The notes under the pieces are model-generated. The model made no database searches and was not told the DNA's origin. It worked only from the letters and a program-made list of their open reading frames with translations. The translations under genes were made by a program, and so were the position numbers. This document shows, piece by piece, positions 43,882-63,622 of a stretch of 64,000 nt of DNA. Location of the stretch: positions 1,044,575 through 1,108,574 of the forward strand of contig CP070837.1 in the NCBI GenBank assembly GCA_020341815.1. Reading direction: 5' to 3'. Positions within the stretch are counted from its first letter, which is position 1; each line of letters begins with the position of its first letter. Origin of the DNA: Candidatus Omnitrophota bacterium (GTDB lineage: Bacteria; Omnitrophota; Gorgyraeia; JAFGHF01).

Positions 43882-44975
43882 ATGAAAATAAAAACATCTA
43901 AAGAATCTTTATTAAAAGCGGTTCAGACGCTCCAAAGTGTTATTTCCACAAAAAGCACTCTCCCTGTTCTCTCTAATTTTCTCTTAGAGGCCCAGAAGGA
44001 TAAAATTCTTATGGCTGCCACAGACCTGGACGTAGGCATTTCGCTTGATTTTTCTCCCATAGAAATAAATGAGGAAGGCAGTATTACTGTTCCGGCCAAG
44101 AAATTTCTGGATATTATTAAGGATTTACCCGCAGGGGATATAACTGTAACCGTGAGGAAGAATAATTCTATTTCCATTGAATCGCAAAAATGCTTCTTCA
44201 GGTTGATGGGCCTGCCTAAAGACGAGTTTCCTAAATTGCCGAAACTTCACGAAAAAGAAAGTATCAGTCTGGATCAGCGATTGTTGAAGAATATGCTTAA
44301 CCTTACCTCTTTTGCGGTTTCTCGCGATGAGACCAGATACATACTGACCGGCGTCCTTTTTTTGGTTGAAGGTAAAAGAGTAAGATTTGTAGCTACCGAC
44401 GGAAGAAGATTGGCTTTAATCGAAAAAGAAATGAACGAGGCCCAGCGCTTTAAGAAAGAAGTTATCGTTCCTATTAAGGCGATTCAGGAATTAACGCGCA
44501 ACTTAAAAGACGAGGGCGTGGTAAAAATAGTTTTCGGAGAAAATCAGATTTCTTTTCAATTCGATAATATAACGCTTATTTCCCGTCTTATCGAGGGGCA
44601 ATTTCCTAACTATGAACAGGTAATCCCCAAAGGAGGCAAGGATAAGGTTGTTATTGACCGGGAGAGATTTCTCTGGGCCGCAAAAAGGGTTGCTATTTTA
44701 ACTTCTGCCGATTCACAGTCGATAAAATTAGATTTATTTAAGGATAAATTAATCTTTTCTAAAAACAGTCCGGATATGGGTGAAGCCCGGGAAGAAATAG
44801 ATATCGAGCATAGGGGGGGAGAGTTTTCCGTAGGTTTTAACCCGCAATATTTAATCGATGCCTTAAAGACGCTTAAGGATCAGGATATCAGTTTGGAATT
44901 GACGGGTTCGGAAAGCCCGGGTATAATCAGGGCCCAGGGCAGTTATGTTTATATAGTTTTACCGATGCAACTAGC

Positions 44976-44979
<4 letters not shown>
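43882..44979 (+). CDS. dnaN: DNA polymerase III beta sliding clamp
   Basis: Three-domain ~365 aa protein. The N-terminus MKIKTSKESLLKAVQTLQSVI is typical of DnaN. Confidence 0.9.
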
Positions 44980-49387
<4,408 letters not shown>

Positions 49388-49389
49388 CT

Positions 49390-51822
49390 ATGTATACAAA
49401 AGGCGAAAAGATAGTACCCGTTTATATCGAAAATGAAATGAAGGATTCCTATGTTTCCTATGCCATGAGCGTAATCGTGGGACGGGCGCTTCCCGATGTG
49501 CGCGACGGCCTCAAGCCCGTGCACCGACGGATTCTTTATGCGATGAAAGAGCTGCACCTGGAGCACAGCAAGCCTTATAAGAAATGCGCGCGTATAGTTG
49601 GAGACACCCTTGGCCGTTTTCACCCGCATGGTGACACGGCGGTATTTGATGCCCTGGTGCGTATGGTTCAGGATTTTTCCTTAAGGTATCCTTTAGTTGA
49701 CGGTCAGGGGAATTTTGGCTCAATCGACGGGGATGCTGCGGCGGCTATGCGTTATGTTGAAGCACGCTTAAGCTCGATTACCGATTGGATGCTTAAAGAC
49801 CTGGAAAAAGAAACCGTCAACTTTGTGCCCAATTTCGACGAATCTATGACCGAGCCCTCGGTCCTGCCGGCGGTTTTGCCAAATCTTCTGGTAAACGGCT
49901 CAAGCGGCATAGCCGTGGGTATGGCTACCAATATCCCGCCGCATAATCTGGGTGAGATAATTGAGGGAGTTAAGCTGGTTATCGATGAGCCCGATTGCGA
50001 GATAAAAGAATTGATGCGCCTGATTAAAGGCCCGGACTTTCCCACCGGCGGATTTATCTGCGGGCGGGAAGGGATAAAGCATGCCTACACCTCAGGGCGC
50101 GGGCGGCTTAAGGTGCGCGCCAAGGCCAATATCGAACAGCAGAAAAGCGGCAAAGAGGCCATTGTAATTTCCGAGATACCCTACCAGGTAAATAAAACAA
50201 ACGTAATCAACTCTATCGCCAAGCTGGTGCAGGACAGAAAGATAGACGGCATCAGCGACTTAAGAGACGAGTCAGATAAAGACGGAATGCGTATTGTGGT
50301 AGAGCTGCGCCGGGGGGCAATAGCCCAGGTGGTGCTTAATCATTTATTTAAGCAGACCCAGATGGAAGAGACCTTTGGCGTAATTCTGCTTGCCCTGGTG
50401 GACAACCAGCCGCGCATTCTCAACCTGAAGCAACTGCTTGAGCTTTATATCGAGCATCGCAAAGAGATAATTATCCGCCGCACCACCTTTGACCTGCGCC
50501 GGGCGGAGGAACGGGCGCATATCTTAGAGGGTTTGAAGATTGCCCTTTCGCATCTGGATAAAGTTATTAAAACTATTAGAGAGTCCAAGACGCCCCAGAT
50601 TGCCAAAGAGCAATTGATGAAGAAGTTTTCTTTAAGTGAAAGACAGGCCCAGGCGATTCTGGAGATGCAGCTTCAGAGGCTGACCGCTCTTGAGCGCGAT
50701 AAAATCGACCAGGAATATCTGGAGCTGATTAAAAAGATTGAGCAGCTCAAAAGCATCTTGGCCAGCGAAAAAAAGGTCTTGGGGATTATCAAGGATGAGC
50801 TGGATGAGCTGAAGAAGAAATTCGGCGACGACAGAAGAACGCAGGTTGTGGGCGAGGCCGAGGATCTGGAAATAGAAGACTTGATTGCCGAGGAAGATGT
50901 TATTATTACCATTACTCATTCCGGCTATATAAAGCGCCTTCCGGTAAGCGCATACAAGCGGCAGCGCCGGGGCGGAAGAGGCGTAACCGCAATGGGGACG
51001 AAAGAGGAGGATTTTGCCGAGCATCTTTTCCTTGCCTCAACGCATGAATATATTCTTTTCTTCACTAATAAAGGAAAAGTCTATTGGCTAAAAGTGCATG
51101 AGATTCCTCAAGGAGGACGCCTTTCCAAGGGTAAGGCAATCGTCAATCTTCTGCAGGTGGAGTCGGGTGAGAAAATCTCCGCGCACGTCCCGGTAAAAGA
51201 GTTCGACCCCAAGAAATACCTTGTTTTGGTTACCAAACAGGGTTTGATTAAAAAGACCTGCCTGGATGCCTTCAGTAATCCGCGCCGCGCGGGTATCGTA
51301 GCTATTTCCCTTGAGTCCGGAGATGAATTGATTGCAGCCACCCTTACCGACGGAAAACACGAAGTCTTTCTGGCCAGCCGCCAGGGCAAGGCCCTGCGCT
51401 TTAAGGAAAGCGATGTGCGCGATATGGGTAGAACTGCCAAGGGCGTGCGGGCAATAAAATTGCGCAAGAACGATGAGGTAATCGGGATGGAAATCGTCAG
51501 GCCCGAGGCCACGCTGCTTACGGTAACCTCAGGCGGTTTTGGCAAGAGGACCCCGTTTAAGGACTACAGGCTGCAGTCCCGCGCCGGACAAGGAGTTATC
51601 AATATTAAAGTGACCAGTAAAAATGGCGAGGTCGTCGGCCTCAAATCCGTTAACGATAAAGATGAAGTAATGATTATCACTCAAAACGGGATGGTAGTGC
51701 GCTGTCCCGTCAAGGATATTCGCACCGTGGGCAGAAATACTCAAGGCGTGCGGATAATCCGCCTGGGGCAAAAAGATAAGGTTTCATCGATTGCCTCGGT
51801 AGTAAAGAAGGAAGAAGAATAG
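49390..51822 (+). CDS. gyrA: DNA gyrase subunit A
   Basis: Catalytic-Tyr region [12 protein letters not shown]-terminal beta-pinwheel repeats. 810 aa. Confidence 0.95.
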
Positions 51823-52418: not shown

Positions 52419-52496
52419 GACCCCATCGTCTAGCCCGGCCTAGGACAAGAGCTTTTCAAGCTCTCGACACCGGTTCGAATCCGGTTGGGGTCGCCA
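52419..52496 (+). tRNA. tRNA-Glu (anticodon TTC)
   Basis: Acceptor GACCCCA/TGGGGTC, D-arm GTCT-AGCCCGGCCTA-GGAC, anticodon stem AGAGC/GCTCT with loop TTTTCAA, T-arm ACCGG-TTCGAAT-CCGGT, discriminator G, CCA. Confidence 0.85.
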
Positions 52497-52545
52497 TCAA
52501 TTCGGACACTCTTGTAACTTAAACAGTTATAAGAGGTTAAATAAA
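52482..52545. repeat. left direct repeat (putative attL) spanning the tRNA-Glu 3' end plus 49 bp
   Basis: 64 bp. Matches 63801-63865 with ~5 mismatches and 1 indel: cggttg(c)gggtcgccatc[a/g]attc[g/a]gacactcttgtaactta..cagttataagaggttaaataaa. Confidence 0.7.
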
Positions 52546-52710
52546 GTAAGGGGAGTTGAAGTACTTCAAAAAAGGAGTATTTTGGCTTCCTTTTTTATTT
52601 TATCTCAAAAGCATAGTTCAATTTTTGAATTCAGCTTTAAGCAAAGCATAATTCAAAATTTGAACTCTCATATATTAAATAAATAGATACTTAAATAGAA
52701 GACTTAAACT

Positions 52711-53190
52711 ATGAGAACCATTTACCCATTTGGCTGGATAGACAGAGACCTTAAAGAATTAGGATTTTTAAAGGAAATGTCTCCTACAGCGGCAAAGCTT
52801 TATATTCTTTATATCCTGGCCGGTGGCGCAAATGGCAGAAGCTGTTACAGCGCTAAGGCCTTAAACGAAGCAACCGGCCTGGCAAACGCCACAATATGCA
52901 AAGCAAGACAGGAGCTTCAAGATATGGGTCTTATTGCAGTAGAGAAGGAAATGATACCGGGTCGCAAGAACAAGAAGCCAAAGATATGGGTAGAGCTCCA
53001 GGATCTTCCGGTTGACAGGATGGAGGTTAAACAACGCAGAAACACCGCCCATAAAGAACTTACCACTAAGAGAATCAGGAAAAGGAGATCGGAATTCATT
53101 GAACAGCCGAGACTTCTTTGTGAAAGGCCATATATGGCTCCAGATTGGCTGAAACAAGGTGTAAAACGAGCAAGGAGGCCTTATGTTTAG
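52711..53190 (+). CDS. winged-helix DNA-binding protein (regulator or replication-initiator-like)
   Basis: Predicted HTH around SAKALNEATGLANATICKARQELQDMGLI. Basic C-terminal tail. Preceded by paired inverted-repeat sites. Confidence 0.5.
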   Translation: MRTIYPFGWIDRDLKELGFLKEMSPTAAKLYILYILAGGANGRSCYSAKALNEATGLANATICKARQELQDMGLIAVEKEMIPGRKNKKPKIWVELQDLPVDRMEVKQRRNTAHKELTTKRIRKRRSEFIEQPRLLCERPYMAPDWLKQGVKRARRPYV

Positions 53191-53407
53191 CCTGCGCCGC
53201 TGGCTCAAATATACCCTAAATCCCCCAGAATATATTTGGATAAAGGCCATTTTGCTCAAAGAAACCCGCAAAGCCATCTTAATTGAGTTCGATGGCAAGC
53301 AAATCTGGCTCCCGAAGGTCTGGATTTTACGTATCAAACGAATTCAATGCAACCCTACCATAAGCATCAAAATATCCCAGTATCACTGGGCCAAGAAGCT
53401 CGGGTAA
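53183..53407 (+). CDS. hypothetical small protein (74 aa)
   Basis: Overlaps the previous gene by 8 nt. No recognised motif. Confidence 0.35.
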   Translation: MFSLRRWLKYTLNPPEYIWIKAILLKETRKAILIEFDGKQIWLPKVWILRIKRIQCNPTISIKISQYHWAKKLG

Positions 53408-53541
53408 TTTCTGTATTCAGCCTCGTTTTTTTCATGTATTCCCCTTTACAACCCTCTCAAAAGCATTTATAATAGTAAGCCAACTAGACGCTAAATGCTA
53501 GCAAAAGGGCTTATTTTACCGGTCCAAGAAGTATTTAATAC

Positions 53542-53571
53542 TTGAAAACAGAGCTTTTTCAGGAGTATAAT
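53542..53571 (+). promoter_or_regulatory. sigma70-type promoter for the methyltransferase operon, with a 15-bp palindrome over the -35 box
   Basis: TTGAAA (53542-47), 17-bp spacer, TATAAT (53566-71). Palindrome aagtatttaatactt at 53529-53543. Confidence 0.5.
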
Positions 53572-53610
53572 ATATAGCTGTCGAATGTCTATATAAAGCT
53601 GGAGAAATGT

Positions 53611-54669
53611 ATGCCTTGCAATTTTAGCGTTATTGATTTATTTTCTGGATGTGGCGGACTGTCGTACGGCTTTGTTAGGTCGGGGTATAATGTCTTGCTG
53701 GGTATAGATAATGATCCGGTAGCCCTCAAAACTTTCAAGCTCAACCATTCCGGATCGGATACTATAATAGCTGATATTGCAGGCATTTCCGGACAGGATA
53801 TCCTGAAAGCTGTGGGCAGAAGACAAATAGACGTTGTTATAGGCGGACCGCCATGTCAGGGATTTTCGCTTTCTGGCCCCAGAAAATTTAGTGATCCCAG
53901 AAACAAATTATACCTTTCTTTTATAAGGCTGGTTAAAGAACTGAAGCCTAGGGCATTTCTGATTGAGAATGTTCCCGGCATTATGAGTCTCTACAAAGGA
54001 CAGATAAAAGACGAAATTATTGGCAGATTTTCGAAAATGGGTTATAAAGTGAGTTGCAGTAAGCTGAATTCGGCAGACTACGGCGTTCCCCAACTGAGAA
54101 ACAGGGTTTTTTTTGTGGGAATATATAAGGCGAAAGAGTACTTTAAGTTCCCCCCTCCAGTGTTAAATAAAGAATGTTATATTGTTGCCGAAGAAGCCAT
54201 CGGCGATCTGCCAGGTTTGGAGGATCGTATCGGCACAGATCCAGCCCCTTATCCCGGAAACGGCGAACTCACGAGATATCAGAAATATATGAGGCAAGGT
54301 TCTCAGTATATACATAATCATATCGGAACGCGCCATGCCGAAATGACAAAGCGCGTTATATCTCTCGTTCCGGAAGGATGTAATTATAAAAGTCTGCCGC
54401 CGGAATATGCCAATACCAGAAATTTTCATGTTGCATGGACAAGGTTCCACAGCAAAAAGCCGGCACCGACCGTTGACACTGGCCATAGACACCACTTCCA
54501 TTATTTATATGACAGGGTTCCTACTGTCAGAGAATGCGCAAGGCTGCAATCTTTTCCGGACATTTTTATTTTCATCGGAAATAAATCACAACAATATTCC
54601 CAGGCAGGAAATGCAGTTCCTCCATTCACGGCACAAGCTATTGCGGAAGAAATGAGGCATTATTTATGA
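53611..54669 (+). CDS. DNA (cytosine-5)-methyltransferase, copy 1
   Basis: Motif I DLFSGCGGLSYGF, motif IV GGPPCQGFS, motif VI ENVPG, motif VIII QLRNRVFFVG, motif X GNAVPPF. Confidence 0.9.
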   Translation: MPCNFSVIDLFSGCGGLSYGFVRSGYNVLLGIDNDPVALKTFKLNHSGSDTIIADIAGISGQDILKAVGRRQIDVVIGGPPCQGFSLSGPRKFSDPRNKLYLSFIRLVKELKPRAFLIENVPGIMSLYKGQIKDEIIGRFSKMGYKVSCSKLNSADYGVPQLRNRVFFVGIYKAKEYFKFPPPVLNKECYIVAEEAIGDLPGLEDRIGTDPAPYPGNGELTRYQKYMRQGSQYIHNHIGTRHAEMTKRVISLVPEGCNYKSLPPEYANTRNFHVAWTRFHSKKPAPTVDTGHRHHFHYLYDRVPTVRECARLQSFPDIFIFIGNKSQQYSQAGNAVPPFTAQAIAEEMRHYL

Positions 54670-56081
54670 GATACCAGATACCAGAAGAATATTATTGTAG
54701 GTTGCACCACATACGTCCGAGGTTTAAAAATAATATAGAAAATGTTCTTATTTATATGGCTACCGAGATATCTAAAATTCGAAGAAAGAGCAAAAGAGAA
54801 TTCGATAAAGAAGTTAATAAAGCAATTAAAAAATTCCCAGGGAATGCAACGAAAAAGATTAAGACAATCAACAATTGGCGCACAGAAATCTCCTCTCTGT
54901 TTGGTTTTATCCGCACCAGCAGATCAAAAGATAAGTCGTGGCCAGCACTGAGGGCGACAGAGCTGGCGGATAAACAGGATTTGGTGCATTCGTTCAAGCT
55001 TTTTCTGTACCATTTTCAGTATCCCGGAGGACATCTCAAGCCTCACGAAAATGCTGAAGTTATCAGGCAAGGTATCAAATTCAGACCGGCACCTTTTATT
55101 TTGAAATTACTGCATAGCGCTGAAAAAAATGAAAAGACCAGGAAAGGTATCACCAAGCCCGAGCTGACCCACTGTGTTTTCAATGACCTGAGAGTCACGC
55201 GTGACGGGGAAGGTCCGGAATCCGTATGGGAGCGCATTAAAGAAAACAGGAAGAAAAAGGTTCAATATGACTGCAGGGGGGATGTTATACGTTATGCCGG
55301 AGATATTCTCGACTATATGGTAACGGCTAACTTACTTACTCCCCACGGGCAGAAATATTTTATAAATACCCTGGAGAAAAACGCGGTGCAGAAATTTATG
55401 GAGTCAAAAGATTGGTTTAGCAAGTATGACCGTTATATAGATAAAAGAAATGTTACCTTAGCGCAGATAAATAGTCTTCAGGAAGCATGGTTTGAATATG
55501 TAAATATGCCCAGGGAAGAGATATTCGAAACGGATGCTTTGGCTTTTATCGCCAGAGACGAGACAGAATATGCGAAGTTGCGAAAACAGATCGTAAGCAG
55601 TTTTATGGAAAAGCTCGAAGAGCCTAGTGAAATTGGCACGAAGGAAATAGGGGATGTGGGCGAAAATCTTGTGCACGGGCACGAATGTATGAGGATTAAA
55701 TTGCGCGAGCGTACAGACTTAATACATCTTATTCGGTGCATACCGGATCATCTCGCTGCCGGTTACGATATCAGATCTGTCGAGGCAGATGCTACATACA
55801 GATATATAGAGGTTAAAACTACCATAAGCAACAGCGAAATTGATTTTACCAGAATTCATCTGACGCCTGTGGAATGGACTGCGGCAGACACTCTTAAAAG
55901 CAGATACTTTGTCTACAGACTGCTCTTAAGCAAGAGGTCAAGAAAATTATTTCTGCTTCGCGATCCGGTGGGCCAGTACAAACAAGAAAAACTATCAATG
56001 ACGCCGCGCAACGGGGCAGATATTGTTTTCAGCCCTGCAAGATGCGGTGAATATACGGAGCTTCTGGAGTGGAGAGATTAA
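54666..56081 (+). CDS. protein with C-terminal DUF3883 (restriction-endonuclease-like fold) domain and uncharacterised N-terminal region
   Basis: C-terminal GENLVHGHE ... GYDIRSVEADATYRYIEVKTT ... IHLTPVEWTAA ... YFVYRLL matches the DUF3883 pattern. ATGA-coupled to the upstream MTase and overlaps the downstream MTase. Confidence 0.6.
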   Translation: MRYQIPEEYYCRLHHIRPRFKNNIENVLIYMATEISKIRRKSKREFDKEVNKAIKKFPGNATKKIKTINNWRTEISSLFGFIRTSRSKDKSWPALRATELADKQDLVHSFKLFLYHFQYPGGHLKPHENAEVIRQGIKFRPAPFILKLLHSAEKNEKTRKGITKPELTHCVFNDLRVTRDGEGPESVWERIKENRKKKVQYDCRGDVIRYAGDILDYMVTANLLTPHGQKYFINTLEKNAVQKFMESKDWFSKYDRYIDKRNVTLAQINSLQEAWFEYVNMPREEIFETDALAFIARDETEYAKLRKQIVSSFMEKLEEPSEIGTKEIGDVGENLVHGHECMRIKLRERTDLIHLIRCIPDHLAAGYDIRSVEADATYRYIEVKTTISNSEIDFTRIHLTPVEWTAADTLKSRYFVYRLLLSKRSRKLFLLRDPVGQYKQEKLSMTPRNGADIVFSPARCGEYTELLEWRD

Positions 56082-57484
56082 GAATAGCTTCGCTTTTCTG
56101 TGGTTGCGGCGGCACGGACGCGGGAATGCTCGGGGGGTTTACTTTCCTCGGCAGTAAATATGAAAAGCATCCTGTACAAATCGTTTACGCGAACGACATA
56201 GATGCCTCCGCAGCCAGAATATACGATGCAAATTTTAAACACAAATGCCTGGTGAAAGATATCCGGAAGATAAAAGCAGCAGAAATACCGGATCATGACA
56301 TATTGGCCGGCGGATTTCCCTGCCAGTCGTTTTCCATAGTTGCGCAGAATCCGCCTCGTCTGGGATATAGAGATGAAAACGGCCGGTTATTCTTTGAAAT
56401 GTGTAGGATTTTGCGTAATAAAAAACCGTTAGCCTTTGTTGCCGAAAACGTCAAAGGTATTTTATCGGCAAACAATAAACATGCTTTTCCTCTTATAATA
56501 AAAGAGTTTGAAAAATGTGGATACATAGTTTCCTGGTGTCTCCTGAACGCGGCTAATTATGGCATTCCGCAGCGAAGGGAACGTGTTTTTATTGTCGGAA
56601 TAAGAAAAAATATAGGCAGGAAGTTTTATCCTCCGGATTCTACCCACAGGCCGGAAAGCGATCTCTTGGCCGAAAGAAAATGGGTATCATTAAAAAGAGT
56701 TGTCTTTCCGCATGCCAAGGTGCCGAAGAAATATTTTTTTTCCGACAGGGCGCATAAGGGTCTTCATAATTCCAATCCCGCAATGAATAAAGGCCGGGCG
56801 CAGGATCCCGAGAAAGTTTGTAATACTGTGGGAGCGCACCTTGCTAAAGTCAGCCTTAACAGCACGGATCCCGTTTTAAAGATAAATGGTCGTTTCAGGC
56901 GCTTCGCGCCCAGAGAAGTGGCCAGAATTCAGTCTTTCCCTGATACTTTCAGGCTGCCGGGACCGGACACGGCTAAATACAAGGCTCTGGGGAACGCAAT
57001 TCCGCCGGTGTTGATGTGGCATATGACAGAAAGACTGCTCGAGATATTGGTTAAAGGTCCGGCCGAAGATGCAAGGACCGGCCGGGAAAAAAGAAGCTAT
57101 AATATGGCGCGAATTTGTTCAAAAAACACATTAATAGAACGTATTCTTGATGAAGCATTAAAGTCCTTAGGCTTGGAATATAAAAGAAATGTCAAAGGGC
57201 TTCCCGGAAAACCAGATATAGTTTTTGAGAAAAATCGTCTGGCGGTTTTCTGTGACAGCACGTTTTGGCACGGCAGACATTATCCCGAATGCGTAGAACG
57301 GATTAACACAAATAAAAGTTTCTGGAAAAACAAGATATTGAGAAACATGGAACGAGATAAAAAGACAACCAAAGAATTAAGATATCTAGGCTGGAAAGTG
57401 CTTCGTTTTTGGGATACCGATATAGAGAACAGAATGCAAGCCGTGATAGGAAAAATAGAAAAAATATTGGGTGCCCAGAAATGA
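56069..57484 (+). CDS. DNA (cytosine-5)-methyltransferase, copy 2, fused to a C-terminal Vsr-like very-short-patch-repair endonuclease domain
   Basis: MTase motifs FCGCGGTDAGM, GGFPCQSFS, ENVKG, QRRERVFIVG, GNAIPPV. C-terminal ~130 aa PDIVFEKNRLAVFCDSTFWHGRHYPE ... FW.NK ... RD ... LGWKVLRFWDTD matches the Vsr signature. Confidence 0.8.
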   Translation: MERLRIASLFCGCGGTDAGMLGGFTFLGSKYEKHPVQIVYANDIDASAARIYDANFKHKCLVKDIRKIKAAEIPDHDILAGGFPCQSFSIVAQNPPRLGYRDENGRLFFEMCRILRNKKPLAFVAENVKGILSANNKHAFPLIIKEFEKCGYIVSWCLLNAANYGIPQRRERVFIVGIRKNIGRKFYPPDSTHRPESDLLAERKWVSLKRVVFPHAKVPKKYFFSDRAHKGLHNSNPAMNKGRAQDPEKVCNTVGAHLAKVSLNSTDPVLKINGRFRRFAPREVARIQSFPDTFRLPGPDTAKYKALGNAIPPVLMWHMTERLLEILVKGPAEDARTGREKRSYNMARICSKNTLIERILDEALKSLGLEYKRNVKGLPGKPDIVFEKNRLAVFCDSTFWHGRHYPECVERINTNKSFWKNKILRNMERDKKTTKELRYLGWKVLRFWDTDIENRMQAVIGKIEKILGAQK

Positions 57485-57999
57485 TATATGAAAGCCGCAC
57501 ACTAGGAGAGTCGCCATTTGATTTTGATATTAGCTGGCCCTTTCCGGAAGGACAGAGAAAGTTGCTTGAAGCAGCCGTAACTAAAATAAAAATAGAATCA
57601 GCATCCCAAATTGATAAATTTGAAGAATCTTTCAATGAGGAGATTGCGCAGCATGGTTATATGTGGGACAAGAAAGATAAAAGCACATGTTCTCTCTGGC
57701 GGCCCGATTTCAGAATGTCTGTTGATTTCTATAACGCAAAGGAAAAAATTGCAGTTGAAATTGAAAAGACAGAGGTTAAAAGAATTATCCACGACGTATT
57801 AAAGCTAGTGAACGGCTCCTTAACCTTTGTGCCCAAAGTGAGATATGGAGTAATTATTCATCCGCACACATATAAACGCACATCAGGTAAAGAGAGTGTA
57901 TTTGCATCACGGGTTGTAAGCGAAGTTTCCTTCTATTTCAGGCGTTTGATCGGAAACACCTTATTAAATGATGTTCTTTTTATAGTTTATAATTTTTGA
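57481..57999 (+). CDS. hypothetical protein (172 aa), candidate PD-(D/E)xK nuclease
   Basis: Likely start MIYESRTLGE is ATGA-coupled to the MTase-Vsr stop. RPDFRMSVDF ... IAVEIEKTEVK is weakly PD-ExK-like. Confidence 0.4.
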   Translation: MIYESRTLGESPFDFDISWPFPEGQRKLLEAAVTKIKIESASQIDKFEESFNEEIAQHGYMWDKKDKSTCSLWRPDFRMSVDFYNAKEKIAVEIEKTEVKRIIHDVLKLVNGSLTFVPKVRYGVIIHPHTYKRTSGKESVFASRVVSEVSFYFRRLIGNTLLNDVLFIVYNF

Positions 58000-58148
58000 G
58001 CTGGTTTAAGGTTTTTCTTCGTCGGTAGAGTTTTCATGTTTCTTTGACTCGAATTCCCCGATAGAAAAGTGTTATGTTCCCAGAATTGCTGCACTTTATC
58101 TAGACGGCAAGAGGAAAACTTGGTTGTATAGGAATAAAGGCAAATATC

Positions 58149-58436
58149 TTGATTGGACGCGATTTTGGAATAACTTCTCGTTTTTTAATTAGAGGATTGA
58201 ATATAAAGAAGCTCCTGGCTCTGGCAATTCTAATCTGCCTAATATCCCTAACTGTTTTTGGCCAAGAAAAGAATTACCAAATGAAAACAGGCATATTAAA
58301 GACTTATGGAGAACCATTTTGGAAAGGCGAAGGCAAGCAGCGAGAAGTTTGGTATTACCCACGCCAAAGAATGTTTATTTATTTTGAAGGAGATAGAGCT
58401 ATTGAGATTGATGTAATTGCAGGGGAGAAGACATAA
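58149..58436 (+). CDS. small exported or lipoprotein-like hypothetical protein
   Basis: Hydrophobic N-terminus LLALAILICLISLTVFG. 95 aa. Confidence 0.4.
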   Translation: MIGRDFGITSRFLIRGLNIKKLLALAILICLISLTVFGQEKNYQMKTGILKTYGEPFWKGEGKQREVWYYPRQRMFIYFEGDRAIEIDVIAGEKT

Positions 58437-58439
58437 CGA

Positions 58440-59099
58440 ATGGAAATAATAAAACAAACATATTGTGCGGTTTTAAATAGCTTAAACCAAAATGCTAAAG
58501 ATAACTTTGATTATTTTTGTTCTGAAATTCAAAGAGTTGCAAACGAATATGGGATAGCGAATAAAGTCACTAAACTTGAACTTATCTGCAAAGGGAACCT
58601 TTATCGAAATATAGCAATAAGCTCCGGAAGAGTAAATATAAAAAATAATAATGATAAAACCTACAACTTCTGGGCTTCCTGTTCATTGTTTGTTACTAGG
58701 AAAGAAAGAATTACTGCAATAGTGCAACATGAATTGATGCATATTAAAGATATGGAGGATAAAGAATTTAAATTTGATAAAGAACTGTGGGACGGGTTGC
58801 TTGAAGACAAAATAATAGCCACATCGATTAGGCATATTTGGGACATCTATATAGATTCACGGATTGCGAGAACGAGTAAAATTGGTATTTCTAAACAAGA
58901 TAGGCTCGATGGGATCCTGCGTCTCGCTTTAAATAAGAATTTTCAATTAAGACATTGCATTTGGGAAATTGAAGATGATTTTGATTATCTTTGGAATATT
59001 GAGAAAATAGATTTTCCGACTATCATTGATAAAGCTAAAGAATTAAAAGAGAAAGTAGCGAATAAAGGTATGGCCCACCCGTCCGAAGAAACTTTATGA
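58440..59099 (+). CDS. HExxH-motif putative metallopeptidase
   Basis: HELMH motif (IVQHELMHIKD). 219 aa. AT-rich. Confidence 0.45.
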   Translation: MEIIKQTYCAVLNSLNQNAKDNFDYFCSEIQRVANEYGIANKVTKLELICKGNLYRNIAISSGRVNIKNNNDKTYNFWASCSLFVTRKERITAIVQHELMHIKDMEDKEFKFDKELWDGLLEDKIIATSIRHIWDIYIDSRIARTSKIGISKQDRLDGILRLALNKNFQLRHCIWEIEDDFDYLWNIEKIDFPTIIDKAKELKEKVANKGMAHPSEETL

Positions 59100-59328
59100 A
59101 ACTCAACGCTAAAGTAAAGATCTGGATGATCTTAGCCCCTTTGTGATAATGGCGACAATAGCCACAAAGGCTTTTTGCTATCCAGCAGAGGTTGAGGATA
59201 TGAGCGGAGAAAAATGCGTAGGATAATCTTTCGCCATAGTGGCCAAAAAATGCTATCCCTATGCAAAGGGGATAATGGATAAATAGCAGTTATTCTCATT
59301 TTTATAAAGTTTATGGAGTAAAAGGAAG

Positions 59329-59889
59329 ATGATTGACAGAAGTTTTGTTGATTATTGGAGCGAAAGATACGATAAGAATGCTCTGAAGAGAGATAAAAAG
59401 CTAGAGAAGAGAATTAGAGGAAAACTAAAGAAACTTTTTCCCGATGGGAAGGTAAAATACATTTTGAAAGACACGTTATTCGACATCGTTAACTGGAAAG
59501 CTCCGAGAAAGAAAAAATTAGCCAAAGATAATAAAAAAGAATATGTCTTTGAATTAACCAAGGCAAATTTTAAGGGGCATAGAGAACAGCTAAAGATAGA
59601 GGGACTAACATTACTGAAGGGTGTTGAGTATCGGGTTGCGAGTGCAATTCTTCATTTCTGTTTTCCCAAAAAATATACCGTAATGGACTATCGGACTTGG
59701 GAGTGTTTACAGAAAGAAAAAGAACTTCCTAAGGATTGCAACATTAAAGATGATTTTGAGCATTGGCAGAAATATTTAAAAATCTGTAGAAAAATAGCCA
59801 AAAGATGTAATGTCCCATTAAGAAAACTTGATAAGGCACTCTGGCAATACCATAAGGAATTGGAATGTAAAAAGAAGCTCAGGAAATGA
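59329..59889 (+). CDS. hypothetical protein (186 aa, Lys-rich)
   Basis: ORF with a plausible SD (aaaaggaag 8 nt before the ATG). No recognised domain. Confidence 0.4.
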   Translation: MIDRSFVDYWSERYDKNALKRDKKLEKRIRGKLKKLFPDGKVKYILKDTLFDIVNWKAPRKKKLAKDNKKEYVFELTKANFKGHREQLKIEGLTLLKGVEYRVASAILHFCFPKKYTVMDYRTWECLQKEKELPKDCNIKDDFEHWQKYLKICRKIAKRCNVPLRKLDKALWQYHKELECKKKLRK

Positions 59890-59963
59890 TAGCAGGGAGA
59901 AAAAATAAATCCGCCCCCCTGCTTTTTACTATTTCTATAACTTATTGAAGATAGTCCATACTA

Positions 59964-61130
59964 TCATTCTGGCCAAGCACTTAATTTCTGGTTGCCATGG
60001 AAAGAAAATAACTGAACATGACCACAATAGCCGCAGGTAAAGATTTTCATTGAATGAGTTCCAACGTATTTGAAGCCAAACTGCATCATGTCATTTGGGT
60101 CGCGATCAGCAATTAGTTTGTATTTACCAATCCCGCAAACTCTACATAATCGTTCAATATCGGGATCAAGCCGATCAGCACCCTCATCAATAATAGATAA
60201 GGTATTATCCACTTCTGCGAGAAGTTCGGAGGCATCCCTAAGGCAGTTTTTTTCATCTTCTACTATACATTTTTTAAGAAGTGAATTAGCCAATCGCATT
60301 AAACGACTGCTTGGGAACTTCTTTTCTAGATTAAAGTCCGGTCTATCAAAATACCAGAGAGGAAGAATAGGTGTGTCTGAAACCATTGCCCATAAGACCT
60401 TCCCCAAACAAAATACATCAAATGATGGTTTTACATCTTCTATCCGCATCCCTATTGCCCAACCGGGCATCCAATCCCGACTTCCTACATTCTCCCAGGT
60501 GCCAGAGATTCTGGTATGTCTTTGGTCTGTAAAGAATATCAGCCCAAAATCTCCAAGAATTAAATTATCGCTGGAATCAAGAAAAATATTTTGAGGCTTA
60601 ATATCTCTATGTACATTATTTTTTTCATGTAATTTGGCAATACCTTCCACAAGTGGCCTAAATGCTCTAAGGGCTTTAGCAAAATCACCGGTAAATTTAT
60701 TTAAATGTTTAGCCATCGTTTCTTTTGGGTAAAATTGAGACACAAACCATTTTGAATCTGGATCAGCATCTATAATTTTTAAAAGATTGGGATGTGAAAT
60801 GTTAGACATCGCTTTAATTTCACGCTCAATTCTTTTTTCGGCTAATCCGGCATTTCTTGCGTCTTGGGGACTATGCAATACTTTTAAAGCGCCGTGGTTT
60901 GAAGGATCTTCCATTTTAACAAGATGGACTATAGCATCCTTGAATAATTCAAATTGATTCTTCTTGATATCTTCTATTGCAACCACAGGCCCCATATATT
61001 TAACTGCTTTTTCAATGTTTGTCCGAATTTTGGTTATATTAAATTTATCGTTATCAATAACGCGATAAACCTTTCCTTGCCCGCCCTCTCCTTTATGCTC
61101 AATAATACGCCATCGGTTTGAATATTCCAT
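59964..61130 (-). CDS. eukaryotic-like Ser/Thr protein kinase with C-terminal zinc-ribbon
   Basis: Gly loop GEGGQGKVYRV, catalytic loop HRDIKPQNIFLD, DFG, C-terminal CRVCG ... CGYCGH. Confidence 0.85.
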   Translation of the reverse strand: MEYSNRWRIIEHKGEGGQGKVYRVIDNDKFNITKIRTNIEKAVKYMGPVVAIEDIKKNQFELFKDAIVHLVKMEDPSNHGALKVLHSPQDARNAGLAEKRIEREIKAMSNISHPNLLKIIDADPDSKWFVSQFYPKETMAKHLNKFTGDFAKALRAFRPLVEGIAKLHEKNNVHRDIKPQNIFLDSSDNLILGDFGLIFFTDQRHTRISGTWENVGSRDWMPGWAIGMRIEDVKPSFDVFCLGKVLWAMVSDTPILPLWYFDRPDFNLEKKFPSSRLMRLANSLLKKCIVEDEKNCLRDASELLAEVDNTLSIIDEGADRLDPDIERLCRVCGIGKYKLIADRDPNDMMQFGFKYVGTHSMKIFTCGYCGHVQLFSFHGNQKLSAWPE

Positions 61131-61282
61131 TTAAGACCTCCTGCTTTAGGTTTCTAGGCTTCTTCTGCCTTTCTTGAGGTTTGAGAAGCAGTTATTTTAC
61201 AACTTCCGTTACTAATTATAATCCTTAAAACAATGGATCTCAAGCAAAATCTGCCCAGAGAGAAAATTTTTTAAAATTTCTC

Positions 61283-61311
61283 TTGACAGATGCCCAAGCA
61301 TATGCTATTAT
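61283..61311 (+). promoter_or_regulatory. sigma70 promoter (TTGACA-17-TATTAT) with a palindromic operator in the spacer, driving a leaderless HTH gene
   Basis: -35 TTGACA at 61283-88, spacer gatgcccaagcatatgc, -10 TATTAT at 61306-11. The ATG at 61319 is ~7 nt downstream of the -10. The ORF-track start at 61283 is the TTG of the -35 box. Confidence 0.55.
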
Positions 61312-61318
61312 TAAAACG

Positions 61319-61498
61319 ATGACAGAAAAGGAGATTCTTGCAAAGATAGAAGATTACATGAGGAAGAATAATCTCCGGCAGTACGAATTGGCAAAAAAGT
61401 TAGGCGTTCCAGAGTCGACACTTAATAGGTGGCTTAAAGAGAAAACAAATATCTCAAATGCCTACCTGGCCATTTTAAAAAGAGAAGGGATTATTTAA
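61319..61498 (+). CDS. small HTH (XRE/cI-like) transcriptional regulator, probably leaderless
   Basis: HTH LRQYELAKKLGVPESTLNRWL. Start revised from the track's TTG to the ATG at 61319. Confidence 0.6.
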   Translation: MTEKEILAKIEDYMRKNNLRQYELAKKLGVPESTLNRWLKEKTNISNAYLAILKREGII

Positions 61499-61631
61499 AA
61501 AATTTTTAAGGAAAATATTAGCATATGCCAAAGCAAGCGTTAATAGAAAAGAGAGCAAAGCAAGGCAAAGAAATTTTTTTGCCCAATAAATTAGCATATG
61601 CCAAAGCAAATAAAGGAAAGGAGAGAGAGCT

Positions 61632-61838
61632 ATGTCAGAGCTGGCAAGGAAGATAGGGGATAATATCCGCCATTATCGCACGGAGAAGAAGCTGACGCAG
61701 GCGCAACTGGCCAAGAAGGCCAAGTTGAGCCGCGGTTATATCTGCAGAATTGAGCATGGCAGGGTTAATATGTATTTAACGACTCTTTTTGAACTTGCCA
61801 AGGTCCTTGGGGTTAGCTGCCGGGATCTGGTTAAATAA
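61632..61838 (+). CDS. XRE-family HTH transcriptional regulator
   Basis: LTQAQLAKKAKLSRGYICRIEHG HTH. Strong SD aggaaaggagag. Two copies of attagcatatgccaaagcaa upstream. Confidence 0.8.
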   Translation: MSELARKIGDNIRHYRTEKKLTQAQLAKKAKLSRGYICRIEHGRVNMYLTTLFELAKVLGVSCRDLVK

Positions 61839-61853
61839 AAAGGAGAGCCTGAT

Positions 61854-61988
61854 ATGGAGAGCAAAGAGAAGCCGGTCGCGGGAGAAAGGATTAATCAGTT
61901 TATTATCGAGTGCTTATTTAATAAGTACTTCGAGGAGCAGAAGGATAAAGAAGTAGTCGTCAAGAAGGAAGAAGTCGCAGCCCAATGA
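61854..61988 (+). CDS. 44-aa acidic small ORF translationally coupled to the serine recombinase (possible recombination directionality factor)
   Basis: Manually translated as MESKEKPVAGERINQFIIECLFNKYFEEQKDKEVVVKKEEVAAQ. SD aaaggagag. TGA overlaps the recombinase ATG (ATGA). Confidence 0.35.
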   Translation: MESKEKPVAGERINQFIIECLFNKYFEEQKDKEVVVKKEEVAAQ

Positions 61989-63622
61989 AACAGGCAATTG
62001 CCTATTTAAGAAAATCAACAGACTTACAAGAAGCCTCTTTGGAGCAGCAGAGGGAGAAAATCCTCCTGTTTGCAGAAGAGCATTCTATTAAAGTGATTGA
62101 GTTCTTTGCCGAGGAGGCCTGCGGCGAGAATGTCGAAGGCCGGCCGCAATTCCGCAGGATGATAGATTGCTGTAAAGGACAGGATAACTTTCAATACGTG
62201 TTTGTATATGATATCTCCCGATGGGGCAGATTTGAGAATCCGAAGGAAGCTGTATATTGGGAAGTAGAAATAGAGAAGGCAGGCAAAAAGCTTGTTTTTG
62301 TTTCGGAAGGTTTTAAGGAAGACAATATAGGCACCTCAATTACAAATTTTGTAAAGAGCGCAGAGGCCTCAGAATATCTAAAGAATATCCGGCGGCAGAC
62401 GACAAGGGGCATGATTTACAACGCAAAGCAGGGCTTTTGGATGGGCGGCAGGCCTCCTTATGGATATGACCGGGCTATTGTTGAAAACGGAAAGATAATC
62501 GGGGTTTTGCCGCAAGGGAAGCAGAAGGGCATAAAAGATCAGAAAATAAAGCTTGTTATAAATAAGCAGCAGGCCAAGGTGATAAGGATAATATATATCA
62601 TGTTTGCGAAGCAAGGCCTGTCGGTGCGCTCTATAGCTACTTACTTAAATCAAAGCCGATATTCTCCTCCAAGGGGCCGGATGTGGACAAAATCAGCCCT
62701 CTGGCGGATGTTACATAATGAGGTTTATATCGGGATGTTAGTGTATAACCGGGAAAATAAACACAAGAGGCACGGCAGACATAAATATAACCCTAAAGAC
62801 AAATGGATAATTGTAGAGAATGCCCACCAGCCGATAATTCCTCTGGAGCTTTGGGAAATGGCCCAGGCAAGGACAAATCAGGCCTTTGCAGGCGGAAGGT
62901 TTGTGTCCAGAGGAAACAGGCCGCGGAGCAATTATCTTTTATCAGGACTTATAAAATGCGGGAAATGCGGCTCTAACTTTCATGGCAGCCGCTATCATAG
63001 AAAACATTCCATAACCAGAGTATATTGCTGCGGCGGTTATAATATGTATGGTAACAATGTCTGCGCCAGATGGGAAGTGAATGCCGGTGAGCTCGAAGAC
63101 TTTGTCTTAAAATATATACAGGGCAAAATAGATAATCCTATATGGCGCAAGGAGTTAAGACAGGAACTCTTGAAGATGGTTAAAATTGCAGAAGGCAAAT
63201 CAGGCGGCAGGCTGCACGAGCTTGACAAAGAAATCAAAGAAGTGTCTCTAAAGATAGAGAACTGGAAAAGAGCCATTGAAAAAGGCGTAGAATTGGATAA
63301 TGCCGTCAGTATTATCAATAAATATGTATTTCAGAGGCAGCAATTATATCAGGAAAAGGGCAGGCTGTCGGCAAAAGTGCATAACGGCAGCGCCGATAAG
63401 GCCGTAGAGAAGATGCTGTCTTATCTGGACGACTTCAAAGACATATTGAGCTATGGCGAGCCGGAAAGGAAAAAGGACTTTATCAGGCTGTTTGTTAAGG
63501 GTGTTATGATGAATCCTGAGACGAGAGAAGCCAAAATAACCCTTTACAGGCGGCCGAAATCTGGTATAATATTAGGACCTGAAAAGTGCGAGTTGACAGA
63601 AGAAATAGTCTATCAGAATTGA
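61985..63622 (+). CDS. large serine recombinase (integrase)
   Basis: N-terminal resolvase catalytic domain AIAYLRKSTDLQ (Ser nucleophile). Recombinase domain. C-terminal zinc-ribbon CGKCG ... CCGG ... C and coiled coil. Confidence 0.85.
   Translation: MKQAIAYLRKSTDLQEASLEQQREKILLFAEEHSIKVIEFFAEEACGENVEGRPQFRRMIDCCKGQDNFQYVFVYDISRWGRFENPKEAVYWEVEIEKAGKKLVFVSEGFKEDNIGTSITNFVKSAEASEYLKNIRRQTTRGMIYNAKQGFWMGGRPPYGYDRAIVENGKIIGVLPQGKQKGIKDQKIKLVINKQQAKVIRIIYIMFAKQGLSVRSIATYLNQSRYSPPRGRMWTKSALWRMLHNEVYIGMLVYNRENKHKRHGRHKYNPKDKWIIVENAHQPIIPLELWEMAQARTNQAFAGGRFVSRGNRPRSNYLLSGLIKCGKCGSNFHGSRYHRKHSITRVYCCGGYNMYGNNVCARWEVNAGELEDFVLKYIQGKIDNPIWRKELRQELLKMVKIAEGKSGGRLHELDKEIKEVSLKIENWKRAIEKGVELDNAVSIINKYVFQRQQLYQEKGRLSAKVHNGSADKAVEKMLSYLDDFKDILSYGEPERKKDFIRLFVKGVMMNPETREAKITLYRRPKSGIILGPEKCELTEEIVYQN

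What the first reader, a model, noticed from the sequence alone, without database searches (positions are those of the whole stretch)
56069..57484. Cytosine-5 methyltransferase fused in one polypeptide to a Vsr-like mismatch endonuclease
In E. coli, dcm and vsr are separate overlapping genes. Here the Vsr signature (FCDSTFWHG, FW.NK, RD, GWKVLRFWD) forms the C-terminal 130 aa of a complete ten-motif C5-MTase. A single protein would both create 5mC and repair the T:G mismatches that 5mC deamination generates. That is a self-correcting methylation module, unusual enough to deserve verification.
Basis: partly seen in the sequence, partly recalled or inferred. Interest (0 to 1): 0.6.

Follow-up and report, generated by a model that had tools for sequence, protein, structure and literature searches.

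The report
Cytosine methylase fused to Vsr nickase
One gene of a restriction-modification cassette really does encode a DNA cytosine methylase joined to a Vsr-type T:G mismatch nickase, but this is a recurrent, database-visible variant of the well-known methylase/vsr gene pairing rather than a new kind of system.

Summary
ORF 56069..57484 (+, GTG start, 471 aa) is one uninterrupted reading frame. It holds a complete C5 DNA methyltransferase (aa 5-323) and a Vsr endonuclease domain (aa 338-450) that scores above NCBIfam's curated vsr cut-off. The Vsr catalytic and DNA-wedge residues are all present; the E. coli zinc ligands are not.

The fusion is not a sequencing artefact. Forty-four other protein clusters (51-73% identical) from independent assemblies share the architecture, and both active sites are invariant in them.

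The gene is the second methylase (M2) of a four-gene, translationally coupled, BpuJI-family M1-R-M2 restriction-modification cassette. The cassette lies in a low-GC island beside tRNA-Glu.

Related cassettes have no vsr, vsr upstream, vsr as a separate gene abutting M2, or the fusion. The fusion most likely arose by loss of the M2 stop codon.

Reverse-order Vsr::methylase fusions also occur in at least nine other clusters. I found no paper describing such fusions and no biochemistry.

Verdict: real and probably functional, but an evolutionary variant of the dcm/vsr theme. Interest is modest (0.3).

The parts
53611..54669 (+). M1: first C5 cytosine DNA methyltransferase of the cassette (352 aa). 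Its stop overlaps the R start by 4 nt.
   Evidence: Pfam DNA_methylase E 5.9e-71, NCBIfam dcm 210.7 bits. The same position is held by a methylase in L001-L007 and in about 58 GTDB loci. Two 11-of-12 sigma-70-like sites lie at 53445-53473 and 53542-53571, just upstream (consensus matches only).
54666..56081 (+). R: BpuJI-family restriction endonuclease (471 aa). N-terminal recognition domain plus C-terminal NOV_C nuclease domain.
   Evidence: Pfam BpuJI_N E 1.6e-100 and NOV_C E 1.4e-10. It is only distantly like the solved R.BpuJI N-domain 2vla (E 1.2e-16), so its site need not be CCCGT. The M1-R-M2 gene order is as described for BpuJI (PMC1874659).
56069..57484 (+). M2::Vsr, the finding: a single 471-aa ORF with a GTG start that overlaps the R stop by 13 nt.
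   Evidence: P0001 is 100% identical in NCBI nr, named 'DNA mismatch endonuclease Vsr', from a Candidatus Omnitrophota MAG.
56081..57037 (+). C5 methyltransferase domain (aa 5-323). The catalytic Cys85 codon is at 56321-56323.
   Evidence: Pfam and NCBIfam matches. P84-C85, E126-N127-V128, R170 and R172 are invariant in 45 fused sequences, and G308/A310/P312/P313 with N309 nearly invariant. The AF2 model matches M.HaeIII and M.HhaI (Foldseek E about 1e-24). PDB sequence hits to HaeIII and HhaI.
57038..57079 (+). Short linker (aa 324-337) between the end of the methylase C-terminal helix and the Vsr N-terminal helix.
   Evidence: The AF2 model has pLDDT 48-54 for aa 331-350; both domains are mostly above 85; pTM 0.69. 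Linker length varies by about 5 residues between fused subgroups.
57080..57481 (+). Vsr endonuclease domain (aa 338-471). Asp383 is at 57215-57217, His401 at 57269-57271 and Asp430 at 57356-57358.
   Evidence: TIGR00632 120.4 bits, above the 97.85 cut-off. 1cw0 E 8.4e-20. Catalytic and wedge residues conserved. E. coli zinc ligands C66, H71, C73 and C117 align with T398, R403, P406 and T450. This is the Zn-less 'FCDSxFWHG' subfamily, also common among stand-alone Vsr proteins.
57481..57999 (+). Fourth coupled gene (172 aa; its ATG overlaps the M2::Vsr TGA as ATGA): a BglII/BamHI-fold nuclease-like protein of Pfam family PF26497 Halo_RE. Role unknown.
   Evidence: AF2 pLDDT 90.5. Foldseek best hits are BglII 1d2i (TM 0.62) and OkrAI. 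The same gene follows the closest fused homologue in L093. It is not conserved after the fusion gene in L001, L002, L004 or L005.

Best explanation
The gene encodes a bifunctional protein that is the second methylase (M2) of a BpuJI-family restriction-modification cassette (M1-R-M2, asymmetric site).

Proposed roles:
- The N-terminal domain methylates cytosine C5 on one strand of the recognition site. This protects host DNA from the cassette's endonuclease.
- The C-terminal Vsr domain nicks 5' of the T in T:G mismatches left by deamination of the 5-methylcytosines the cassette creates. This starts very-short-patch repair, which host polymerase and ligase complete.

Proposed origin: an M2 gene directly followed by a separate vsr gene, an arrangement that still exists in relatives, lost the M2 stop codon.

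Proposed benefit: mainly genetic. The mobile cassette carries its own antidote to the mutational cost of 5mC, and the repair function is co-inherited and co-expressed 1:1 with the methylase.

What is shown: the architecture, its conservation, intact active sites in both domains, and the series of gene arrangements. What is inferred: both enzymatic activities, the mismatch context, and the selective benefit.
For: Architecture and domain scores are.

The Vsr catalytic Asp/His/Asp, the Phe-Trp...Trp wedge and the N-terminal Met/Ile helix are conserved against E. coli Vsr 1cw0. The residues are invariant or nearly so across 45 fused proteins at 51-73% identity, as are the methylase PC, ENV and RxR motifs. 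Their roles are as described in PMC3384342.

Every fused homologue whose context I read sits in the same M1-R-M2::Vsr cassette: L001, L002, L004, L005 and L093.

Related cassettes show the other states:
- No vsr: L006.
- vsr upstream of M1: L003, L018, L021, L064, L074.
- Separate vsr abutting M2: L016 (1-nt gap, same Zn-less Vsr type), L067 (a complete Ruminococcus genome, 10-nt gap) and L068.

In an NJ tree the fused Vsr domains fall essentially in one clade inside the Zn-less stand-alone Vsr subfamily.

Linkage of vsr genes to C5 methylase genes is established (PMC12907096; PMC6116569).
Against: - No activity has been measured for this protein or any fused relative, and I found no paper on such fusions.
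- The structural zinc site of E. coli Vsr is absent. Many proteins annotated as stand-alone Vsr share this loss, but I do not know of a biochemically tested Zn-less Vsr.
- The Vsr N-terminus, which in E. coli mediates stimulation by MutL (reference cited in PMC2292703), is tethered here.
- One Vsr domain serves two methylases acting on different strands, so it may not cover both mismatch contexts.
- The recognition site is unknown.
- The NJ trees have no support values. Unfused M2 proteins are nested among fused ones, so the number of fusion and loss events is unresolved.
Confidence: 0.75

Rival explanations
1. Mechanistic coupling. The fusion exists because the methylase domain acts as the sequence reader for the nickase. 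C5 methylases bind especially tightly to a mismatched or flipped target base. The methylase domain would therefore find T:G or U:G at its own target position and hand the site to the tethered Vsr domain. This would give site-directed repair and avoid the methylase blocking access of repair enzymes.
For: - The linker is short and the fused state persists over 51-73% divergence.
- Fusions of Vsr to C5 methylases arose repeatedly and in both domain orders. That hints at more than co-expression.
- Published work holds that HhaI and HpaII methylases bind DNA mismatches and block repair (Yang et al. 1995, listed as reference 8 in PMC3804486). Methylases can themselves deaminate target C to U (PMC3804486).
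Against: - Most BpuJI-type cassettes work with a separate vsr or none.
- Unfused M2 proteins are nested among fused ones in the tree, so the tether is dispensable.
- AlphaFold gives no confident inter-domain packing: pTM 0.69 and a low-confidence linker.
- From the known HhaI and Vsr DNA complexes (my own knowledge), both domains wrap the same few base pairs. They could only act in turn, not together.
Confidence: 0.15
2. The Vsr-fold domain is not a repair enzyme here. It would be a nuclease used for restriction or for addiction: cutting or nicking DNA when methylation is missing, which penalises loss of the cassette.
For: - Vsr-fold nucleases have been recruited as cleavage domains in the AbaSI/PvuRts1I family enzymes (PMC4081097, listed) and in EDxHD homing endonucleases (PMC3384342).
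- In Caulobacter a Vsr-like protein damages DNA when its partner methylase is deleted and so stabilises the methylase gene (PMC12907096).
Against: - The domain scores above the curated cut-off of the vsr family proper.
- It keeps the mismatch-wedge residues and the N-terminal helix of E. coli Vsr.
- Its closest relatives are ordinary 125-166 aa stand-alone Vsr proteins.
- The cassette already has a dedicated endonuclease with its own nuclease domain.
Confidence: 0.07
3. Artefact: a sequencing or assembly frameshift merged two neighbouring genes, M2 and vsr, in this metagenome-assembled genome.
For: The source is a MAG. Relatives with separate abutting M2 and vsr genes exist, so a single-base error could mimic a fusion.
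Against: Forty-four other clusters from independent samples have the same continuous ORF. Residues across the junction are conserved (R336, T337, E340, R342, S343). Five contexts were read directly.
Confidence: 0.02

Closest known systems
E. coli dcm-vsr (very-short-patch repair module)
   Same: A C5 cytosine methylase is genetically coupled to a Vsr endonuclease that corrects the T:G products of 5mC deamination. The Vsr domain aligns to E. coli Vsr over 117 residues with all catalytic and wedge residues conserved.
   Different: In E. coli the two are separate polypeptides from overlapping genes, and Dcm is a solitary methylase. Here they form one polypeptide, and the methylase belongs to a restriction-modification system. 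The zinc-binding Cys/His of E. coli Vsr are missing.
BpuJI Type IIS restriction-modification system of Bacillus pumilus (bpuJIM1-bpuJIR-bpuJIM2; PMC1874659)
   Same: The gene order is the same: 5mC methylase, then an endonuclease with a BpuJI_N recognition domain and a C-terminal nuclease domain, then a second 5mC methylase.
   Different: The published description mentions no Vsr (0 occurrences). The window's endonuclease is only distantly related to R.BpuJI itself (E 1.2e-16 to 2vla), so specificity may differ from CCCGT. M2 carries the Vsr domain, and a fourth BglII-fold gene is coupled downstream.
Restriction-modification systems with a separate vsr ('V') gene, such as the Neisseria gonorrhoeae NgoAXIII and NgoAXIV Vsr endonucleases (PMC6116569), and BpuJI-type cassettes L003, L016 and L067 found here
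   Same: A mobile 5mC restriction-modification cassette brings its own Vsr. L016 has the same Zn-less Vsr type placed immediately after M2.
   Different: The stop codon between M2 and vsr is gone in the window's lineage.
Reverse-order Vsr::C5-methylase fusion proteins in public protein collections (P0265, P0270, P0289, P0317, P0370, P0387, P0388 and others)
   Same: Vsr and a C5 methylase share one polypeptide.
   Different: Vsr is N-terminal in those proteins. They are different methylase lineages, and their contexts were not examined. Within the 150 closest Vsr clusters, the methylase-first order was seen only for the BpuJI-M2 clade (P0034).

Membership tests
C5 cytosine DNA methyltransferase (Pfam PF00145 / TIGR00675) | Profile match above the curated cut-off over the whole catalytic domain | tested here: met
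   PF00145 238.8 bits (cut-off 22), model positions 2-322 of 324. TIGR00675 257.2 bits (cut-off 100.65)..
C5 cytosine DNA methyltransferase (Pfam PF00145 / TIGR00675) | Conserved motifs: I (FxGxG), IV (PCQ, catalytic Cys), VI (ENV), VIII (QxRxR), IX and X (GN..P) | tested here: met
   FCGCGG, GFPCQSFS, ENV, QRRERVF, REVARIQSFPD and GNAIPP are in the translation. PC, ENV and RxR are invariant in 45 sequences, and G308/A310/P312/P313 of motif X are invariant with N309 nearly so.
C5 cytosine DNA methyltransferase (Pfam PF00145 / TIGR00675) | Methyl transfer to C5 of a specific cytosine | not testable with these tools
   Needs expression followed by bisulfite, EM-seq or SMRT analysis.
Vsr very-short-patch repair endonuclease (TIGR00632 / PF03852) | Profile match above the curated cut-off | tested here: met
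   TIGR00632 120.4 bits against cut-off 97.85, model positions 6-118 of 119. PF03852 75.7 bits against 27..
Vsr very-short-patch repair endonuclease (TIGR00632 / PF03852) | Catalytic Asp51, His69 and Asp97 (E. coli numbering) | tested here: met
   D383, H401 and D430 align with them and are invariant in 45 fused proteins.
Vsr very-short-patch repair endonuclease (TIGR00632 / PF03852) | Mismatch wedge Phe67/Trp68/Trp86 and N-terminal helix Met14/Ile17 | tested here: met
   F399, W400, W419, M346 and I349.
Vsr very-short-patch repair endonuclease (TIGR00632 / PF03852) | Structural zinc site Cys66/His71/Cys73/Cys117 of E. coli Vsr | tested here: not met
   These positions align with T398, R403, P406 and T450. 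The same loss is seen in many proteins named stand-alone Vsr, such as P0123 of Enterocloster citroniae. It therefore marks a subfamily rather than exclusion from the family.
Vsr very-short-patch repair endonuclease (TIGR00632 / PF03852) | Nicking 5' of T in a T:G mismatch within the partner methylase's sequence context | not testable with these tools
   Needs a biochemical assay on heteroduplex oligonucleotides.
BpuJI-family Type IIS restriction-modification system | Endonuclease with a BpuJI_N recognition domain plus a C-terminal nuclease domain, flanked by two 5mC methylase genes | tested here: met
   BpuJI_N E 1.6e-100 and NOV_C E 1.4e-10, with methylases on both sides. The gene order is as in PMC1874659 and recurs in about 58 GTDB loci.
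BpuJI-family Type IIS restriction-modification system | Recognition of 5'-CCCGT | tested here: inconclusive
   Similarity to the solved BpuJI recognition domain is only distant (E 1.2e-16). CCCGT is not avoided in the window: 89 sites against 74 +/- 8.6 expected.

The most novel reading that the evidence does not exclude
The covalent link is functional, not just genetic. The methylase domain, which should bind a mismatched target base more tightly than a paired one, would serve as the sequence-specific mismatch sensor and deliver the Zn-less Vsr domain to its own target site. That would make a single-polypeptide 'write and proofread' enzyme. Its repair specificity would be set by the methylase's target-recognition domain rather than by Vsr. 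Such a protein would be a compact, reprogrammable T:G/U:G nickase.
Probability: 0.15. Interest if true: 0.55.

Novelty: new variant of a known kind. Interest (0 to 1): 0.3.

Why it matters
The locus gives a clean natural series for one restriction-modification family: no vsr, vsr upstream, vsr abutting M2, and vsr fused to M2. The series shows how a mobile 5mC system takes on the repair function that offsets its own mutagenic cost.

The fused proteins are ready-made material for two questions. Does tethering Vsr to a methylase change repair specificity or efficiency? Are Zn-less Vsr enzymes active?

The locus does not reveal a new biochemical principle. The pairing of 5mC methylases with Vsr is textbook knowledge, and the fusion already sits in public databases under automatic names.

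Tried and rejected
1. Frameshift or assembly artefact: rejected, because 44 independent fused clusters exist and five contexts were read directly.

2. Literature search for methylase-Vsr fusions (papers read): nothing describes them. This library lacks most subscription journals and REBASE, so the absence is weak evidence.

3. Word-index homologue search with the Vsr domain alone: it returned only stand-alone Vsr proteins and missed the fused clade. That is an index limitation. The exhaustive representative search was needed.

4. Avoidance of CCCGT in the window: none seen. The test is uninformative because the endonuclease is only distantly like BpuJI.

6. Fixed inter-domain docking: the AF2 linker has low confidence and pTM is 0.69. 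PAE is not available, so no interface can be claimed.

7. The stand-alone Vsr of L003 as the source of the fused domain: rejected. It is the zinc type and only 33% identical.

8. The downstream BglII-fold gene as an obligatory partner of the fusion: rejected. It is absent after the fusion gene in L001, L002, L004 and L005.
Full report
**Observation.** The window has a single ORF at 56069..57484 on the + strand (GTG start, TGA stop, 471 aa).
- Pfam places a C5 DNA methylase domain at aa 5-323 (E 1.3e-70, almost the full model) and a Vsr domain at aa 339-405 (E 2.6e-21).
- NCBIfam places dcm TIGR00675 at aa 6-323 (257 bits). It places vsr TIGR00632 at aa 338-450 (120.4 bits, above the curated cut-off of 97.85, model positions 6-118 of 119).
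- A GGAG lies 8 nt before the GTG, and homologues start MERLK/MERLR. The start at 56069 is therefore better supported than the one in the NCBI record of the identical protein (P0001, 466 aa, 'MAG: DNA mismatch endonuclease Vsr [Candidatus Omnitrophota bacterium]').

**Is the fusion real?** A search with the whole protein returned 44 further clusters of 453-494 aa carrying both Pfam domains. They are 51-73% identical and come from different samples and sources. Named ones come from Spirochaetota, Elusimicrobiota and Candidatus Omnitrophus magneticus.

In the 45-sequence alignment both active sites are invariant:
- On the methylase side: P84-C85, E126-N127-V128, R170 and R172, together with G308, A310, P312 and P313 of motif X (N309 is nearly invariant).
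- On the Vsr side: M346, I349, D383, H401, W419 and D430, with F399 and W400 nearly invariant.
- Junction residues R336, T337, E340, R342 and S343 are also conserved.

A frameshift or assembly artefact is therefore excluded as far as comparison can exclude it.

**The Vsr domain.** It aligns to E. coli Vsr (1cw0) at E 8.4e-20 over 117 residues.
- The essential Asp51, the general-base His69 and Asp97 are kept. Their roles are summarised in PMC3384342.
- Also kept are the Phe67/Trp68/Trp86 wedge and Met14/Ile17 of the N-terminal helix.
- The four zinc ligands of E. coli Vsr (Cys66, His71, Cys73, Cys117) align with Thr, Arg, Pro and Thr.
- This 'FCDSxFWHG' pattern is not special to the fusion. It is shared by many 125-166 aa stand-alone proteins 43-56% identical to the domain, some named very short patch repair endonuclease (Enterocloster citroniae, Lachnospiraceae).

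The domain is thus a member of a common Zn-less Vsr subfamily. I know of no biochemical test of that subfamily.

**Structure.** An AlphaFold2 model built on the 45-sequence alignment has mean pLDDT 85.7. Both domains are confident, the linker and Vsr N-terminal helix (aa 331-350) are poorly defined, and pTM is 0.69. The methylase part superposes on M.HaeIII and M.HhaI. No fixed domain interface can be claimed.

**Context, which changes the reading.** The gene is the third of four genes whose ends overlap:
- M1, 53611..54669, a C5 methylase.
- R, 54666..56081, with BpuJI_N (E 1.6e-100) plus NOV_C.
- M2::Vsr, 56069..57484.
- A 172-aa ORF, 57481..57999.

An endonuclease flanked by two 5mC methylases is the arrangement described for the BpuJI Type IIS system (PMC1874659). 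The window's endonuclease is only distantly like BpuJI itself (E 1.2e-16 to 2vla). I therefore treat the recognition site as unknown, and the lack of CCCGT avoidance says little.

The cassette lies in a low-GC block that begins after tRNA-Glu (52419..52496) and ends near a large serine recombinase (61985..63622). A PD-T4-6/mad6-like protein kinase lies in between. This is probably an integrative defence island.

**Comparative series.** All five fused homologues whose contexts I read are in the same M1-R-M2::Vsr cassette (L001, L002, L004, L005, L093). A scan of GTDB species-representative genomes found about 58 cassettes of this type. They span Bacillota, Bacteroidota, Spirochaetota, Saccharibacteria, Campylobacterota and an archaeon. 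Most have no vsr within 4 kb. The arrangements seen were:
- vsr upstream of M1: L018, L021, L064 and L074 in that scan, and L003, whose Vsr is the zinc type and only 33% identical to the fused domain.
- A separate vsr directly after M2: L016 (1-nt gap, Zn-less type), L067 (a complete Ruminococcus genome, 10-nt gap, zinc type) and L068.
- None in that set is fused.

In a neighbour-joining tree the fused Vsr domains form essentially one clade inside the Zn-less subfamily. In the methylase tree some unfused M2 proteins are nested among fused ones. The simplest account is one fusion by loss of the M2 stop codon in an L016-like ancestor, spread with the cassette, and occasional loss of the domain. 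The trees have no support values, so the number of events is open.

**How unusual is it?** An exhaustive search of 1.84 billion representatives with the Vsr domain found 9575 relatives. Among the 150 best clusters:
- One is the methylase-first fusion (P0034, standing for the whole BpuJI-M2 clade).
- At least nine full-length clusters are fusions in the opposite order, Vsr then C5 methylase.
- Single clusters show Vsr fused to NUDIX, DUF4420 or an AAA ATPase.

Vsr-methylase fusion is therefore a recurrent event that is visible in public data and named automatically. Four full-text searches found no paper that describes it. The library omits much of the older restriction-enzyme literature and REBASE.

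**Mechanism.** The best-supported reading (confidence 0.75) is the ordinary one. M2 methylates one strand of the site. The Vsr domain nicks 5' of T at the T:G mismatches that 5mC deamination produces. Host polymerase and ligase finish the repair. Fusion secures co-inheritance and 1:1 expression in a horizontally mobile cassette.

Three rivals remain:
- Functional hand-off, in which the methylase domain finds the mismatch (0.15). Methylases are reported to bind mismatches at the target base and to block repair (Yang et al. 1995, cited in PMC3804486). Against it, the tether is dispensable in most relatives.
- A restriction or addiction role for the Vsr-fold nuclease (0.07). There are precedents in AbaSI-type enzymes, in homing endonucleases and in Caulobacter VsrA. 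Against it stand the family-level score and the conserved mismatch wedge.
- An artefact (0.02).

**The fourth gene.** ORF 57481..57999 belongs to Pfam PF26497 (Halo_RE).
- Its model (pLDDT 90.5) is closest to BglII and the BamHI isoschizomer OkrAI.
- It has invariant acidic and lysine residues: D82, E93, E95, K96, E98 and K100.
- It follows the closest fused homologue too (L093).
- Elsewhere it sits with C5 methylases, an HhH-GPD glycosylase and an EcoRII-C endonuclease (L010, L094, L095), or with no methylase nearby (L008, L011).
- Its role is unexplained.

**Verdict.** The feature is a variant arrangement of a known partnership, and it is already frequent in sequence databases. Interest 0.3; novelty: new variant of a known kind.

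Noticed in passing
window 57481..57999 (+): A 172-aa gene overlaps the M2::Vsr stop as ATGA. It belongs to Pfam PF26497 Halo_RE, and its AF2 model is closest to BglII and OkrAI. It has no obvious methylase of its own. It recurs next to 5mC systems that also carry a deamination-repair enzyme (Vsr here and in L093; an HhH-GPD glycosylase in L010, L094 and L095).
   Followed up: partly
window 52419..63622: A low-GC block (0.34-0.46) starts right after tRNA-Glu (52419..52496). It holds an HTH protein (52711..53190), the restriction-modification cassette, several ORFs with no family match, a Ser/Thr kinase matching PADLOC mad6/PD-T4-6 (59964..61130, - strand) and a large serine recombinase (61985..63622). 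This is probably an integrative defence island.
   Followed up: partly
window 45281..49387 (+): gyrB is 1368 aa long and contains an intein with a LAGLIDADG homing-endonuclease domain (Pfam Intein_splicing plus LAGLIDADG_3). It lies between dnaN (43882..44979) and gyrA (49390..51822). GC skew changes sign near 43-44 kb, so this is probably the replication origin region.
   Followed up: no
window 56069 versus 56084: The public annotation of the identical protein (P0001, 466 aa) starts at an ATA five codons into the ORF. Homologue N-termini (MERLK...) and a GGAG 8 nt upstream support the GTG at 56069.
   Followed up: yes
L003 553..960; L067 4965..5390; L016 4971..5411: BpuJI-type cassettes have recruited Vsr at least twice from different subfamilies. 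The zinc type ('HGCFWH'/'NGCFWH') occurs in L003 (upstream) and L067 (downstream). The Zn-less type ('FCDSxF[WF]HG') occurs in L016 and in all fusions.
   Followed up: partly
L005 429..1516: In one fused-type cassette (GCA_000972885.1) the M1 methylase is called as two fragments (93 and 285 aa), possibly a frameshifted or decaying M1. The locus sits beside DUF3854/DUF927 and Gp3-like genes, which suggests a mobile element.
   Followed up: no
P0286, P0378, P0333 (representative proteins): Vsr domains are also fused to a NUDIX hydrolase, to a DUF4420 PD-(D/E)XK domain and to an AAA_15 ATPase in other lineages. P0243 appears to hold two Vsr repeats.
   Followed up: no
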